Source: a virus. From it: a DNA stretch of 23,905 nt. Location: the UHGV virus genome UHGV-0095783; one strand, written 5' to 3'. The position numbers and the translations under genes were made by a program. Positions 1 through 14,782 of this stretch are shown piece by piece; the first letter of the stretch is position 1; each line of letters opens with the position of its first letter. The notes below the pieces were generated by a model. It saw only the letters and a list, made by a program, of their open reading frames with translations, searched no databases and was not told the DNA's origin.

Positions 1-38
1 TACATTCAATCAATTGTTATCTAAGGAAATACTTACAT

Positions 39-317
39 ATGCAACTTACAAGTACTCGCAAGAAAGCGAATGCAATTACAAGCAACATCCTGAATCGAAT
101 TGCTGTACGTGGTCAGCGAAAGGTTGCCGACGCGTTAGGGATTAATGAATCGCAAATTTCGCGATGGAAAGACAGCTTTATCCCAAAGATGGCCATGCTT
201 CTGGCTGTGCTGGAATGGGGTGTTGAAGACGAGGAGTTGGCGGAACTGGCTAAGAAAGTAGCCAGAATGCTGACAAAAGAAAAAGCCCCGAAGAACGGCG
301 AATTCTTCGAGGCCTAA
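39..317 (+). CDS. cII: CII-like transcriptional activator
   Basis: 92-aa ORF whose translation (…[33 protein letters not shown]…) closely resembles lambda CII as recalled; the leader aaggaaatacttacatATG is lambda-like; the C-terminal tail differs from lambda. Confidence 0.85.
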
Positions 318-351
318 TGTAGAAAGACTGGATCAATCCACAGGAGTCATT

Positions 352-498
352 ATGACAAAACAACTCAGTCCTTACCAGGACAAAATTCACAAACACATAC
401 TACGTGATCGCTTCCTGTCCAGCTTCAAGCAGCCTGGTCGATTCCGGGCTGAGTTGGAAAAAGTGAAGCTGATGCAGAAGGAGAAAGGTCATGAGTAA
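352..498 (+). CDS. hypothetical small protein (48 aa), not in the supplied ORF track
   Basis: Read by hand: ATG at 352, TAA at 496-498, translation [48 protein letters not shown]. Good SD (aggag, 342-346) 5 nt upstream; its 3' end overlaps the ATG of the next gene (491) by 8 nt. No family recognised. Confidence 0.4.
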
Positions 499-1390
499 CA
501 TATCTAATCTAGCCGAAGCCAGAGAGGCCAGAAGGCTACAACAACCGCATCAAAGCAGCGGTAAGGGGTATGCCTTGCTGCACCGTAAAATTATGGATGT
601 GCCGTTTTACAAGGACGCAGAAGCTGCGCATCTGTGGGTTCACTTAATCCTCAAAGCAAAGCATACGCCTGAGTATGTAATGACTGACGCAGGAGAAATT
701 CTGGTAGGCAGAGGGAAGCTACTTGGCGGTAGAAACTCTCTGGCGTTTGAAACAGGGCTCAAACCAGATCGCGTTCAGTACCTGCTTAGAAAGTTCAAAA
801 AACTCGGCATGATTGACTGGGTTTCACACGGTAAATTCTCAGTTTTCTCGGTAGAGAAATATGACGATTATCAGTCAAATTTTGTACCAGCAGATTACCA
901 GCAAATTACCACCTCAAAGCCAGCAATACCAATGCCTGCAAGCAATACTGTACCAGCAGATTACCAGCAAATTACCACAGATAAAGAATATAATAATATT
1001 ATCTCTAATACTGACGTATTAGAGAGTACCGTAGCAGACAAAAAGTCTGACAAGAAAAAACCTTCCGTCAGCTGTCAGGATGTTGTCGATGCTTACCACG
1101 AAATCCTTCCTGAAGCTCCAAGAATCCGCGCACTGAATGACAAGCGTAAAAACCAGATCCGAACGTTCTGGCGCAAAGCCGGAGTGATAACCCGCCAGCT
1201 TGACGGGCATGGGTTCACGATGCAGGACTGGAGAAATTATTTGAGCTACGTTGGCGAAAATTGCCGATGGATGTTCGAAGAGCGCCCAAACCATCAACGC
1301 GGAACCGTCTGGCACAAAAAGGGATTTGATTTCCTGCTTAACGATAATACCTACCTGAAAGTTCGTGAGGGTGAACACGATGACCGATAA
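491..1390 (+). CDS. replication initiator protein, lambda O-like / P22 gene 18-like
   Basis: 299-aa ORF directly upstream of a DnaB-type helicase. SD aaggag 478-483. The middle of the protein carries a duplicated peptide ([10 protein letters not shown] x2) encoded by DNA iterons, as in ori-containing O genes. Confidence 0.8.
882..976 (+). repeat. origin iterons inside the initiator gene
   Basis: Exact 29-bp direct repeat gtaccagcagattaccagcaaattaccac at 882-910 and 948-976; each copy contains two ~11-bp subunits (taccagcaRat). An AT-rich stretch follows at ~977-1012. Confidence 0.7.
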
Positions 1391-2816
1391 TTTTTATGCG
1401 CCGCCCCATAGCATCGAGGCAGAGCAGGCGGTGATTGGTGGATTGCTTCTGGATGATGACAGCAGTGAGCGCGTCCAGAAAGTTCTGGCGATGCTGAAGC
1501 CTGATTCATTTTACAGCCGACCACACAAAATCCTTTTCGAAGAGATAACCAGAATGCACCGGGAGCAAAAGCCAGTAGATGGCCTGACGCTTTTCGATGA
1601 ACTGGAGCGTAAATCGTTAACGGCGTCTGTTGGCGGTTTTGCTTATATCGCTGAGATCGCAAAGAACACGCCAAGCGCAGCAAACATCGTTGCCTATGCA
1701 ATGCAGGTTCGTGAAACCGCAATGGAACGCTACGCCATCAACCGCATGACTGAAGCGACGGAATTGCTCTATTCCCGCAACGGAATGACTGCAACGCAGA
1801 AGTACGAAGCTATTCAGTCGATTTTCACGCAACTGACAGACCATGCAAAAACCGGATCGCGTCGCGGCCTTCGTTCATTTGGTGAGGTCATGGAAGACTG
1901 GGTTAGCGACCTTGAGAAGCGATTTGACCCATCAGGCGAACAACGGGGAATGAGCACAGGGATCCCATCGCTGGACAGGATGCTGTCACCGAAAGGTCTG
2001 GTGAAAGGCTCTCTGTTTGTCATTGGCGCTCGCCCTAAGATGGGGAAAACGACGCTATACAGCCAGATGGCAATCAACTGCGCAGTGCATGAGAAAAAGC
2101 CCGCTCTGATGTTCAGCCTTGAAATGCCAGGTGATCAGATACTGGAAAAACTGGTAGGGCAGAAGTCTGGTGTTAACCCGAATATTTTTTACCTTCCGGC
2201 GACAAATGACGCTGATGACGGCTATCAGGGTGATTACGATGGTGACTTCAACAGGGCGATCGAAACAGCCAATCGCTTGAGTGAAATCGACCTGCTTTAC
2301 ATCGACGACACGCCGGGATTATCTCTGGCTCAAATCGTCAGCGAAAGCCGTCGAATCAAGCGAGAAAAAGGATGTGTTGGCATGATTCTGGTCGATTACC
2401 TGACACTAATGACCGCTGAGAAGGCCGATCGCAACGACCTTGCTTACGGCATGATCACCAAAGGACTGAAGAACCTTGCCAAAGAGCTTGATTGCGTTGT
2501 TGTGCTTCTGACACAGCTTAACCGCGCATTGGAAAGCCGAACCAATAAACGCCCATTACCAAGTGACTCGCGAGATACAGGGCAGATTGAACAGGATTGC
2601 GATTATTGGGTCGGGATCCATCGTGAAGGTGCTTTTGATGACAGCGTTCCTCCTGGTGAAACCGAACTAATCCTTCGTCTCAATCGTCATGGCAATACCG
2701 GCACGGTGTATTGCATTCAGGCAAATGGCGCTATTTATGACACAGACCAACAGTCTGCTGAAATGCGCCGACGTGAACGCGAGGAACCGCAGTCCAAGAA
2801 GAAAGGAGGATTCTGA
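1380..2816 (+). CDS. replicative DNA helicase, DnaB family (P22 gene 12-like)
   Basis: N-terminus PPHSIEAEQAVIGGLLLD…GGFAYIAEIAKNTPSAANIVAYA parallels E. coli DnaB as recalled; Walker A GARPKMGKT. ATG 1380 preferred (gaggg SD 9 nt upstream); the track ORF opens at GTG 1365. Overlaps the initiator stop. Confidence 0.9.
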   Translation: MTDNFYAPPHSIEAEQAVIGGLLLDDDSSERVQKVLAMLKPDSFYSRPHKILFEEITRMHREQKPVDGLTLFDELERKSLTASVGGFAYIAEIAKNTPSAANIVAYAMQVRETAMERYAINRMTEATELLYSRNGMTATQKYEAIQSIFTQLTDHAKTGSRRGLRSFGEVMEDWVSDLEKRFDPSGEQRGMSTGIPSLDRMLSPKGLVKGSLFVIGARPKMGKTTLYSQMAINCAVHEKKPALMFSLEMPGDQILEKLVGQKSGVNPNIFYLPATNDADDGYQGDYDGDFNRAIETANRLSEIDLLYIDDTPGLSLAQIVSESRRIKREKGCVGMILVDYLTLMTAEKADRNDLAYGMITKGLKNLAKELDCVVVLLTQLNRALESRTNKRPLPSDSRDTGQIEQDCDYWVGIHREGAFDDSVPPGETELILRLNRHGNTGTVYCIQANGAIYDTDQQSAEMRRREREEPQSKKKGGF

Positions 2817-6431: not shown

Positions 6432-6506
6432 GGGTCAGTCGTATAAAGGTCATTACGGAAGGCTGTTAACCTTCTTATCGTGGTTCGAGTCCACGCTGTC
6501 CCGCCA
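6432..6506 (+). tRNA. tRNA-like element, anticodon GUU (Asn) by hand folding
   Basis: 75 nt. Acceptor stem 6432-6438 with 6496-6502 (6/7 pairs), U8, A14, GG in the D-loop, anticodon stem gaagg/ccttc with loop CTGTTAA (anticodon GTT at 6465-6467), 4-nt variable loop, T-arm cgtgg-TTCGAGT-ccacg, discriminator G and encoded CCA. Anticodon loop and T-arm match E. coli tRNA-Asn as recalled. Folded by hand only. Confidence 0.45.

Positions 6507-11101: not shown

Positions 11102-14782
<3,681 letters not shown>

What the first reader, a model, noticed from the sequence alone, without database searches (positions are those of the whole stretch)
882..1012. Replication origin embedded in the initiator gene
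A perfect 29-bp direct repeat (882-910, 948-976), each built from two ~11-bp iteron-like units, is followed by an AT-rich stretch, all inside the coding sequence of the O-like initiator. This mirrors the ori-lambda arrangement, but with different iteron sequences and a different initiator family. The repeats also produce a duplicated peptide ([10 protein letters not shown]) in the protein linker, so the DNA is constrained at both the binding-site and coding level.
Basis: partly seen in the sequence, partly recalled or inferred. Interest (0 to 1): 0.45.

Follow-up and report, generated by a model that had tools for sequence, protein, structure and literature searches.

The report
HK022-type phage origin inside initiator gene
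The repeats are the already-annotated replication origin of an HK022/VT2-Sakai-type lambdoid phage, lying in the part of the initiator gene that encodes a floppy linker; it is a well-supported but ordinary and previously described feature.

Summary
The repeat is real. It is far beyond chance: the longest repeat in shuffles is 17 bp.

Each copy holds three, not two, 11-bp units (core TACCAGCA/TACCAC). After the repeats come the least stable duplex segment of the whole 23.9-kb window (981-1001) and a perfect 10-bp-arm palindrome (1002-1025).

All of this lies in codons 131-179 of a 299-aa initiator, in a linker predicted to be disordered. The linker joins a winged-helix N-domain to a C-domain. 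A DnaB-family helicase gene follows.

About 40 diverged homologues keep the same layout: 3+3 units, AT tract, palindrome. The unit sequence changes with the N-domain. Silent codon positions inside the units are nearly frozen. The palindrome is kept by compensatory changes at all 10 pairs.

So the origin reading is strongly supported by sequence comparison, though binding and origin firing remain untested.

It is not new. The gene is 98-99% identical to HK022 O. GenBank AP000422.1 (VT2-Sakai) already annotates exactly these two 30-mers as "ori iteron 1/2". The six 11-bp repeats of the phage L homologue were described as its likely origin in 2020.

The parts
491..1390 (+). O-like replication initiator gene (299 aa), HK022 O type
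   Evidence: ORF. It is 98-99.7% identical to the O proteins of HK022, VT2-Sakai and mEp235. It hits PHROG 345 'replication initiation O-like' at E 1e-87 and has no Pfam PF04492 hit.
566..871 (+). Coding region of the N-terminal winged-helix domain (aa 26-127), the presumed origin-recognition domain
882..914 (+). Iteron triplet 1: three 11-bp units (TTGTACCAGCA, GATTACCAGCA, AATTACCACCT). Contains the exact 30-mer 883-912.
   Evidence: It matches 'ori iteron 1' of AP000422.1 (13443-13472).
915..947 (+). 33-bp spacer between the triplets; more GC-rich and poorly conserved
   Evidence: 27 of 33 sites vary within the TACCAGCA class, and third-position entropy is 0.74. The spacer differs in every lineage.
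948..980 (+). Iteron triplet 2: three 11-bp units (CTGTACCAGCA, GATTACCAGCA, AATTACCACAG). Contains the exact 30-mer 949-978.
   Evidence: It matches 'ori iteron 2' of AP000422.1 (13509-13538).
981..1001 (.). AT-rich tract (20 of 21 bases A/T), the presumed DNA-unwinding element; also the mosaic junction between the N and C modules
   Evidence: The 30-mer from 981 is the least stable in the 23.9-kb window. The 40 bp downstream of the last unit are 70-85% AT in every homologue listed. GC is 20% at 980-1019.
1002..1025 (.). Perfect palindrome TCTCTAATAC-TGAC-GTATTAGAGA (10-bp arms, 4-nt loop)
   Evidence: In 37 diverged sequences all 10 pairs show compensatory double changes. 97.8% of cells are paired against 68% in shuffles (0 of 500 reach the observed value) and 31-55% in slid controls. 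Only one G:U cell occurs among 370. The single-strand DNA hairpin has dG -7.5 kcal/mol on either strand. Lambda has an analogous palindrome at the same relative place.
1064..1387 (+). Coding region of the C-terminal domain (aa 192-299), the presumed helicase-partner domain
   Evidence: AF2 pLDDT is mostly 77-92, falling to 71 over the last ten residues. It is homologous to the C-terminus of P22 gp18 (BLASTP E 5e-5). It assorts independently of the repeat class, with up to 100% identity between classes.
1380..2816 (+). DnaB-family replicative helicase gene (HK022 P / P22 gene 12 type); its start overlaps the initiator's 3' end by 11 nt
   Evidence: Pfam DnaB (E 3e-31) and DnaB_C (E 3e-60). The start position follows the VT2-Sakai annotation and the sequence itself.

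Best explanation
This is the theta-replication origin of an HK022/VT2-Sakai-type lambdoid replication module. It sits in the stretch of the initiator gene that encodes a disordered inter-domain linker.

The proposed mechanism is inferred by analogy with lambda O/ori-lambda and SPP1 gp38/oriL:

1. The initiator's N-terminal winged-helix domain binds six 11-bp direct-repeat units. They are arranged as two triplets 66 bp apart, so all lie on roughly the same face of the helix. The units have no dyad symmetry, so binding is probably as head-to-tail monomers.
2. The resulting nucleoprotein complex, on supercoiled DNA and helped by rightward transcription through the gene, melts the adjacent AT tract (981-1001).
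3. The initiator's C-terminal domain brings in the phage's own DnaB-family helicase, encoded immediately downstream, so that the host DnaB need not be hijacked.
4. The palindrome at 1002-1025 is a further DNA-level origin element whose role is unknown. It might be a hairpin or cruciform, or a symmetric protein site used during helicase loading.

Shown here: the anatomy, its conservation, selection acting on the DNA itself, and covariation of repeat sequence with the N-domain.

Inferred only: binding, melting, helicase recruitment, and what the palindrome does.
For: (1) Identity with an annotated origin. The gene is 98-99.7% identical to the O genes of HK022, VT2-Sakai and mEp235. AP000422.1 annotates exactly window 883-912 and 949-978 as 'ori iteron 1/2', bound by O protein. 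The phage L homologue carries a rep_origin feature at the same place, and its paper calls the six 11-bp repeats the likely origin (PMC8022706).

(2) Conserved architecture. Nearly all of the 74 distinct homologous linker sequences compared show 3+3 units at 11-bp spacing at the same offsets (48, 59, 70, 114, 125, 136). An AT-rich stretch (70-85% AT over 40 bp) and a 9-11-bp-arm palindrome follow. The exceptions are two loci with 12-bp spacing and three copy-number variants.

(3) Specificity covariation. There are six unit classes: TACCAGCA, TACCAACA, TGTCCAACG, TGTCCAGCC, TGCCAACA and AATCCAA. The class is predicted by the nearest N-domain neighbour in 38 of 41 cases, against 22 of 41 for the C-domain. 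C-domains can be 100% identical across classes, whereas N-domains reach at most 73%.

(4) Selection on DNA beyond coding. Across 34 distinct genes of the TACCAGCA class, third-codon-position entropy is 0.09 in the two 30-bp blocks. It is 0.64 in the N-domain, 0.86 in the C-domain and 0.74 in the spacer. Variable third positions are 6 of 20 against 195 of 219 (Fisher p = 1.3e-8). Because the period is 11 bp, the three units of a triplet are read in three different frames, so the repeat cannot be explained at the protein level.

(5) Unwinding element. The 30-mer at 981 is the least stable duplex of the whole window.

(6) Palindrome covariation.

(7) Protein anatomy. There is a confident winged-helix N-domain, a disordered linker at aa 133-191 that coincides with the origin, and a folded C-domain. 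A DnaB-family helicase gene lies next door.

(8) Same element order as lambda: iterons, AT tract, palindrome.
Against: - No experiment on this origin type was found in the searchable literature. The database features are labelled putative or assigned by similarity.
- The repeat-class covariation partly reflects shared ancestry and physical linkage of the N-domain coding region with the repeats.
- Covariation between the C-domain and the helicase was weak (Mantel r 0.12, p 0.03), so the helicase-recruitment step has no independent support here.
- The palindrome's role is unknown. It tracks the adjacent C-domain module, which could be mere linkage.
- One natural variant (L100) has only one triplet, so two triplets may not be strictly required, unless that prophage is defective.
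Confidence: 0.85

Rival explanations
1. The repeats do bind the initiator, but they mainly act in control: autorepression of the initiator/helicase operon, or titration and handcuffing as with plasmid iterons. The true start site would then be elsewhere.
For: The sites lie inside the initiator's own transcription unit, so bound protein could block rightward transcription. Copy number varies naturally from one to four triplets, as would be expected of a tunable control element.
Against: The least stable duplex of the whole window directly abuts the repeats, and the iteron, AT tract, palindrome order matches ori-lambda. No other repeat cluster or exact TACCAGCA copy exists in the 23.9-kb window. 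The two roles are not mutually exclusive.
Confidence: 0.07
2. A neutral in-frame tandem duplication (66 bp, 22 aa) in a disordered protein linker, with no function at the DNA level.
For: The region encodes a linker with pLDDT 30-43. Variants with one, three or four copies of the 66-bp module exist, showing that slippage or unequal crossing-over happens here.
Against: Third codon positions in the repeats are nearly invariant while the spacer within the same duplicated module diverges freely. The internal 11-bp period is out of frame. The same 3+3 layout, with different unit sequences, is kept in lineages only 43-60% identical, and the unit sequence tracks the N-domain.
Confidence: 0.03
3. The units are binding sites for a different protein, such as a host factor or another phage regulator, rather than for the protein encoded around them.
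For: Binding was not tested. The winged-helix assignment says only that the N-domain can bind DNA, not which DNA.
Against: The unit class changes together with this protein's N-domain across hosts from Escherichia to Yersinia and Erwinia. A conserved host factor would predict a constant site. No other candidate DNA-binding gene is consistently linked.
Confidence: 0.03
4. The palindrome and AT tract form an RNA-level element, such as an intrinsic terminator or attenuator on the minus strand as auto-annotated in phage L, rather than an origin component.
For: The phage L record carries predicted minus-strand 'terminator' features over the homologous spot. On the minus strand the hairpin is followed by a T/A-rich run.
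Against: The stem is AT-rich and weak (-7.5 kcal/mol). Of 370 pair cells only one is G:U, whereas RNA stems normally tolerate wobble pairs; strict Watson-Crick symmetry on both strands points to DNA. No Rfam family matches.
Confidence: 0.02

Closest known systems
HK022 gene O / VT2-Sakai (Sp5) O with annotated 'ori iteron 1' and 'ori iteron 2' (GenBank AF069308.1, AP000422.1)
   Same: It is the same element. The protein is 98-99.7% identical, the same two 30-bp repeats sit at the same gene position, and the flanking genes are the same: cII, orf48 and a DnaB-like helicase.
   Different: There are only single-base differences. For example, HK022 has TGTCCCAGCAG in the first unit of triplet 2 and a few spacer changes. 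The record treats each 30-mer as one iteron; the comparison here shows that each is three 11-bp units.
Phage L / ST64T / Sf6 / mEpX2 gene 18 (gene 43) origin: six 11-bp repeats TGTCCAACGGA (Zaworski et al. 2020, PMC8022706)
   Same: The initiator is homologous (65-67% overall, and the C-domain 93-100% identical). The 3+3 layout at 11-bp spacing, the AT tract and even the palindrome are the same.
   Different: The unit sequence differs (TGTCCAACG against TACCAGCA), and the N-domain is only 47-52% identical. This implies a different origin specificity.
ori-lambda within gene O of phage lambda
   Same: The origin lies in the middle of the initiator gene. The order is repeats, then an AT-rich tract, then a palindrome with a 4-nt loop. 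The N-terminal half of the protein determines origin specificity (PMC7466680).
   Different: Lambda has four 18-bp iterons, each an inverted repeat; here there are six 11-bp direct units. Lambda O's N-domain belongs to Pfam PF04492, and this protein's does not. Lambda's partner is P, which is unrelated in sequence and is known (from established knowledge) to recruit host DnaB; here the partner is a phage DnaB-family helicase.
P22 gene 18 / gene 12 and the P22 origin
   Same: The origin is annotated inside gene 18. A DnaB-like helicase gene follows. The initiator C-domains are homologous (E 5e-5), and both proteins fall in PHROG 345.
   Different: The N-domain of P22 gp18 is lambda-O-like (PF04492, E 7e-38). 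Its repeats are about 20-bp units of a different sequence.
SPP1 gp38 replisome organiser and oriL
   Same: The origin, made of direct repeats plus an AT-rich unwinding element, lies inside the organiser's own gene. The phage encodes its own DnaB-family helicase (PMC6316719). The window's N-domain gives strong hits to 'DnaD-like helicase loader' PHROGs.
   Different: The hit to Pfam PF09681 is below threshold (E 0.097), so homology is not established. SPP1 has a separate helicase loader (gp39), whereas no gene lies between the initiator and the helicase here.

Membership tests
HK022 / VT2-Sakai-type O-ori module | Initiator protein nearly identical to HK022 O / VT2-Sakai O | tested here: met
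   Protein identity is 98.3% to HK022, 99.0% to VT2-Sakai and 99.7% to mEp235, over the full length. DNA identity is 98.9-99.3%.
HK022 / VT2-Sakai-type O-ori module | Two 30-bp repeats at the positions annotated 'ori iteron 1/2' | tested here: met
   AP000422.1 13443-13472 and 13509-13538 map to window 883-912 and 949-978. The repeat is exact in the window.
HK022 / VT2-Sakai-type O-ori module | DnaB-family helicase gene immediately downstream, with cII and orf48 upstream | tested here: met
   Pfam hits DnaB, DnaB_C, Phage_CII and DUF2740. The gene order is the same as in the annotated records.
HK022 / VT2-Sakai-type O-ori module | Demonstrated origin activity and initiator binding | not testable with these tools
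   No experimental paper was found. The database features are putative.
Phage L / Sf6 gene-18-type origin (six 11-bp repeats) | Homologous initiator with 3+3 units at 11-bp spacing in the mid-gene linker | tested here: met
   The offsets 48, 59, 70, 114, 125, 136 are shared across the family.
Phage L / Sf6 gene-18-type origin (six 11-bp repeats) | Unit sequence TGTCCAACGGA (same origin specificity) | tested here: not met
   The window units have the core TACCAGCA/TACCAC, and the N-domain is only 47-52% identical. The architecture is the same but the specificity class differs.
Lambda-type origin (ori-lambda / O / P) | Origin inside the initiator gene, ordered repeats, AT-rich tract, palindrome | tested here: met
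   Window: 882-980, 981-1001, 1002-1025. Lambda: iterons, AT tract, and a palindrome with 12-nt arms and a 4-nt loop.
Lambda-type origin (ori-lambda / O / P) | Iterons are 18-19-bp inverted repeats (sites for dimers) | tested here: not met
   The units here are 11-bp direct repeats with no conserved dyad. Lambda's iterons are ATCCCTCAAAACGAGGGA-type.
Lambda-type origin (ori-lambda / O / P) | Initiator N-domain belongs to Pfam PF04492 (Phage_rep_O) | tested here: not met
   Lambda O hits at E 6e-36 and P22 gp18 at E 7e-38. The window protein has no hit even at E <= 1. hhalign against lambda O gives E 0.28-0.66.
Lambda-type origin (ori-lambda / O / P) | Partner protein is a lambda-P-type loader of host DnaB | tested here: not met
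   The downstream gene is itself a DnaB-family helicase.
SPP1 gp38-type replisome organiser / oriL | N-domain belongs to Pfam PF09681 (Phage_rep_org_N) | tested here: inconclusive
   E 0.097 and 13.1 bits against a cut-off of 23.3. Related 'DnaD-like' PHROGs are hit at E 1e-7 to 1e-21.
SPP1 gp38-type replisome organiser / oriL | Separate helicase-loader gene between the organiser and the helicase | tested here: not met
   The initiator and helicase genes overlap by 11 nt, with no gene between them.
Plasmid iteron origins (RepA / pi / RepE type) | Direct-repeat iterons bound by winged-helix initiator monomers, next to an AT-rich unwinding element | tested here: inconclusive
   Direct repeats, an AT tract and a predicted winged-helix domain are all present. 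However, the units are 11 bp rather than about 17-22 bp, only one winged-helix domain is predicted, and binding was not tested.

The most novel reading that the evidence does not exclude
The origin may be a two-module mosaic.

- A specificity module: the N-domain plus its six 11-bp direct units, probably bound by head-to-tail monomers on one face of the helix. This differs from lambda, where dimers bind palindromic iterons.
- A loading module: the end of the AT tract, the palindrome, the C-domain and the helicase.

The two modules appear to recombine within the AT tract.

On this reading the palindrome is a separately selected DNA-level origin element. It is kept by strict Watson-Crick compensatory change in more than 10 arm variants, even though those changes rewrite the encoded peptide. 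Such an element has not, to my knowledge, been described for this family. It sits at the same relative place as the little-understood palindrome of ori-lambda.
Probability: 0.5. Interest if true: 0.4.

Novelty: already known. Interest (0 to 1): 0.2.

Why it matters
This replication module is carried by Shiga-toxin prophages such as VT2-Sakai (Sp5), Stx1 and Stx2 phages and the PA series. According to the literature on lambda-type Stx phages, phage replication is needed for effective toxin production (PMC7466680). Knowing the origin and its specificity determinants is therefore useful in practice, for origin-decoy or replication-blocking strategies and for predicting which prophages can cross-activate each other.

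As a discovery it adds little, because the origin was annotated about 25 years ago. The comparison does supply a clean natural experiment for initiator-DNA recognition: six repeat classes paired with six N-domain classes. It also flags a palindrome under strong DNA-level selection inside a coding region, which would be a worthwhile target for a simple origin-plasmid mutagenesis study.

Tried and rejected
- **Solved structures.** A profile search of PDB sequences with the family alignment found nothing. Fold searches gave only generic winged-helix hits and no specific initiator relative.
- I made a second protein search with a divergent homologue to obtain admissible sequences.
- **C-domain and helicase co-evolution.** I tested this as support for helicase recruitment. 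The Mantel correlation was only r 0.12 (p 0.03), about the same as for the N-domain (r 0.12), so I do not use it as evidence.
- **Relaxed matches to the unit.** KTACCAGCA with one mismatch is not enriched in the window (14 found, 8.7 expected). Only the exact copies cluster, so there is no sign of secondary sites elsewhere.
- **Rfam.** The scan of the window found only a tRNA and no RNA family at the locus.
- **Literature.** Searches for experimental work on the HK022/VT2-Sakai-type origin found none. The 1994 HK022 paper (PMC523588) is not held.
- **RNA terminator reading of the palindrome.** Considered and rejected; see the rival explanations.
- **Pure protein-level repeat.** Considered and rejected on the third-position data.

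Full report
**Observation**

Window 1-2816 is a lambdoid early-right segment. It holds cII (39-317; Pfam Phage_CII, E 4e-42) and a 48-aa DUF2740 ORF (352-498). Next comes a 299-aa initiator ORF (491-1390), followed by a DnaB-family helicase gene (ATG at 1380, ending at 2816; Pfam DnaB and DnaB_C).

It is an exact 30-mer, TGTACCAGCAGATTACCAGCAAATTACCAC, at 883-912 and 949-978.

This is the longest exact repeat in the window; the next longest is 15 bp. In 200 whole-window shuffles the longest repeat never exceeded 17 bp. In 2000 codon shuffles of the gene it never exceeded 15 bp.

Read in 11-bp register, each block holds three units, not two: TTGTACCAGCA / GATTACCAGCA / AATTACCAC... The two blocks are 66 bp apart, which is 6 x 11 bp and 22 codons. 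This explains the duplicated peptide [10 protein letters not shown].

**What follows the repeats**

Directly after the second block lies a 21-bp tract with 20 A/T bases (981-1001). The 30-mer starting at 981 is the least stable duplex of the entire 23.9-kb window (dG37 -26.4 kcal/mol; mean -42.3, sd 3.4). GC falls to 20% there.

A perfect palindrome comes next, at 1002-1025: TCTCTAATAC-TGAC-GTATTAGAGA.

**It is already annotated**

The initiator gene is 98.9-99.3% identical in DNA to genes in mEp235, Stx2 phage 86, CP-1639, the Stx1-converting phage, VT2-Sakai and the PA series. The protein is 98.3% identical to HK022 O.

GenBank AP000422.1 (VT2-Sakai) carries two misc_binding features, 'ori iteron 1' (13443-13472) and 'ori iteron 2' (13509-13538), bound moiety O protein. 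They map exactly onto window 883-912 and 949-978.

The phage L homologue (66% identical) carries a rep_origin feature at the same place. [quoted passage not shown] P22 and lambda likewise have origins annotated inside gene 18 and gene O.

**Comparative test**

I collected homologues from three sources: annotated phages, 33 bacterial genomes and 80 IMG/VR contigs. After removing duplicates this gave 76 distinct linker DNAs; two loci that match only the C-terminal domain were set aside, leaving 74 for the layout comparison.

Nearly all share one layout at the same offsets. There are three units at 11-bp spacing, a 33-bp variable and more GC-rich spacer, and three more units. An AT-rich stretch (70-85% AT over 40 bp) and a perfect palindrome with 9-11-bp arms and a 2-4-nt loop follow. 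The exceptions are three copy-number variants and the 12-bp-spacing pair described below.

The unit sequence falls into six classes:
- TACCAGCA (the window)
- TACCAACA
- TGTCCAACG
- TGTCCAGCC
- TGCCAACA
- AATCCAA

In a set of 41 sequences with near-duplicates removed, the class is predicted by the nearest N-domain neighbour in 38 of 41 cases. The nearest C-domain neighbour predicts it in only 22 of 41. C-domains can be 100% identical between classes, as in the window and mEpX2, whereas N-domains of different classes never exceed 73% identity. This is the classic lambdoid pattern: the N-terminal half of the initiator and its repeats co-vary.

The residues most informative for class lie at positions 55-64, 86-92 and 103-114. 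This signal is not corrected for shared ancestry.

**Selection on the DNA itself**

I compared 34 distinct genes within the TACCAGCA class, whose N-domains are 76-100% identical. Third-codon positions behave as follows:

| Region | Third-position entropy | Variable third positions |
|---|---|---|
| Two 30-bp blocks | 0.09 | 6/20 |
| N-domain | 0.64 | 89/105 |
| C-domain | 0.86 | 106/114 |
| Spacer between blocks | 0.74 | 10/11 |

The blocks against the two domains combined (6/20 against 195/219) give Fisher p = 1.3e-8.

The period is 11 bp, so the three units of a triplet are read in three different frames. The repeat therefore cannot be a protein-level feature, and the repeated peptide is a by-product of it.

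**The palindrome**

In an alignment of 37 diverged sequences, all 10 stem pairs show changes on both sides. Of the pair cells, 97.8% are paired, against 68% in shuffles (0 of 500 reach the observed value) and 31-55% when the partner column is slid by one to three positions. Only one of 370 cells is a G:U pair.

At least ten arm variants exist, and switching between them changes the encoded peptide (ISNTDVLES against LLPNGSKYV). Strict Watson-Crick symmetry argues for a DNA-level element rather than an RNA stem. As single-stranded DNA either strand folds at -7.5 kcal/mol (z about -6).

The palindrome type assorts independently of the unit class. It follows the C-domain (28.7 of 41) better than the N-domain (21 of 41). 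In the window-mEpX2 comparison, sequence identity resumes inside the AT tract, which suggests that the mosaic junction lies there.

Lambda has a comparable palindrome (12-nt arms, 4-nt loop) at the same relative position after its AT tract.

**The protein**

An AlphaFold2 model built from 123 sequences shows three parts:
- A confident N-domain (aa 26-127, pLDDT 83-94) with winged-helix topology.
- A disordered linker (aa 133-191, pLDDT 30-43).
- A confident C-domain (aa 192-299).

The origin (nt 882-1025, codons 131-179) coincides with the disordered linker.

Lambda O and P22 gp18 both hit Pfam PF04492 (E 6e-36 and 7e-38). The window protein does not, and hhalign against lambda O finds nothing. 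Its C-domain is homologous to that of P22 gp18 (BLASTP E 5e-5), the other lambdoid initiator that is paired with a DnaB-like helicase.

The PHROG hits show that N- and C-domain types shuffle. PHROG 345 holds both P22 gp18 and this protein. PHROG 2514 matches this protein's N-domain and lambda O's C-terminal part.

**Mechanism**

The best-supported reading follows lambda O/ori-lambda (PMC7466680) and SPP1 gp38/oriL (PMC6316719). Winged-helix N-domains occupy the six same-face direct units. The complex, on supercoiled and transcribed DNA, melts the AT tract. The C-domain then delivers the phage's own DnaB-family helicase.

The anatomy, the conservation, the DNA-level selection and the specificity covariation are shown here. 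Binding, melting and helicase recruitment are inferred. The test for covariation between C-domain and helicase was weak (r 0.12) and gives no independent support. The role of the palindrome is unknown.

**Variants**

- Natural alleles carry one triplet (L100), three (L095 and L096; 26 of the top 120 database proteins, 321 aa) or four (P0001, 343 aa). They always differ by whole 66-bp modules, which keeps the reading frame.
- Two loci (L034 and L035, from Silvania and Leclercia) keep the 3+3 plan but with 12-bp spacing.

**Verdict**

The feature is already known: it is annotated in GenBank for near-identical phages and has been described in print for the homologous phage L origin. Interest is therefore low.

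The additions here are:
- Each 30-mer resolves into three units.
- The covariation across the family is quantified.
- Silent sites in the repeats are shown to be constrained.
- A palindrome maintained by compensatory change is identified.

Noticed in passing
L095, L096 (three triplets), L100 (one triplet); proteins P0002-P0027 (321 aa) and P0001 (343 aa): The 66-bp origin module (triplet plus spacer) varies in copy number from one to four in natural E. coli prophages, always in frame. 26 of the 120 best database hits are the three-triplet form.
   Followed up: partly
L034:1920-2023 and L035 (Silvania / Leclercia): A variant origin keeps the 3+3 plan (ATTACCA-type units), but the units are spaced 12 bp rather than 11 bp and the clusters 68 bp apart.
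   Followed up: partly
window 981-1001 compared with L006 and L004: When the window is compared with mEpX2 and phage L, sequence identity resumes inside the AT tract. The origin itself therefore appears to be the recombination junction between the N-domain/iteron module and the palindrome/C-domain/helicase module.
   Followed up: partly
window 352-498: The 48-aa DUF2740 ORF (orf48 of HK022 and P22) lies between cII and the initiator and overlaps the initiator's start by 8 nt. PHROG 1913 and several RefSeq records label it 'tail protein', which looks like an annotation error given where it sits.
   Followed up: no
window 327-359: This stretch matches the conserved 33-bp oop promoter / 5'-end sequence ACTGGATCaATCcACAGGAGTaATTATGaCAAA reported for lambdoid phages (PMC3349717) at all but one position. 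An oop-like antisense RNA is therefore probably encoded upstream of the origin. Rfam reported nothing there.
   Followed up: no
window 6432-6506: A tRNA-Asn (GTT) gene lies in the late-regulatory region of the phage.
   Followed up: no
whole window: The window is a mosaic. About 71% of it, including the head and tail genes, is 97.6% identical to phage lambda, while the replication module is HK022 / VT2-Sakai type.
   Followed up: partly
PHROG 2514 and PHROG 345: Initiator N- and C-domains shuffle between families. PHROG 2514 matches this protein's N-domain and lambda O's C-terminal part. PHROG 345 merges P22 gp18 (which has a lambda-O-type N-domain) with this protein through their shared C-domain. 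The PHROG label 'O-like' therefore hides two unrelated N-domain sequence families.
   Followed up: partly
window 1380-1390: The helicase start codon (ATG at 1380) lies 11 nt inside the 3' end of the initiator gene (stop codon at 1388-1390). This suggests translational coupling of the two replication proteins.
   Followed up: no
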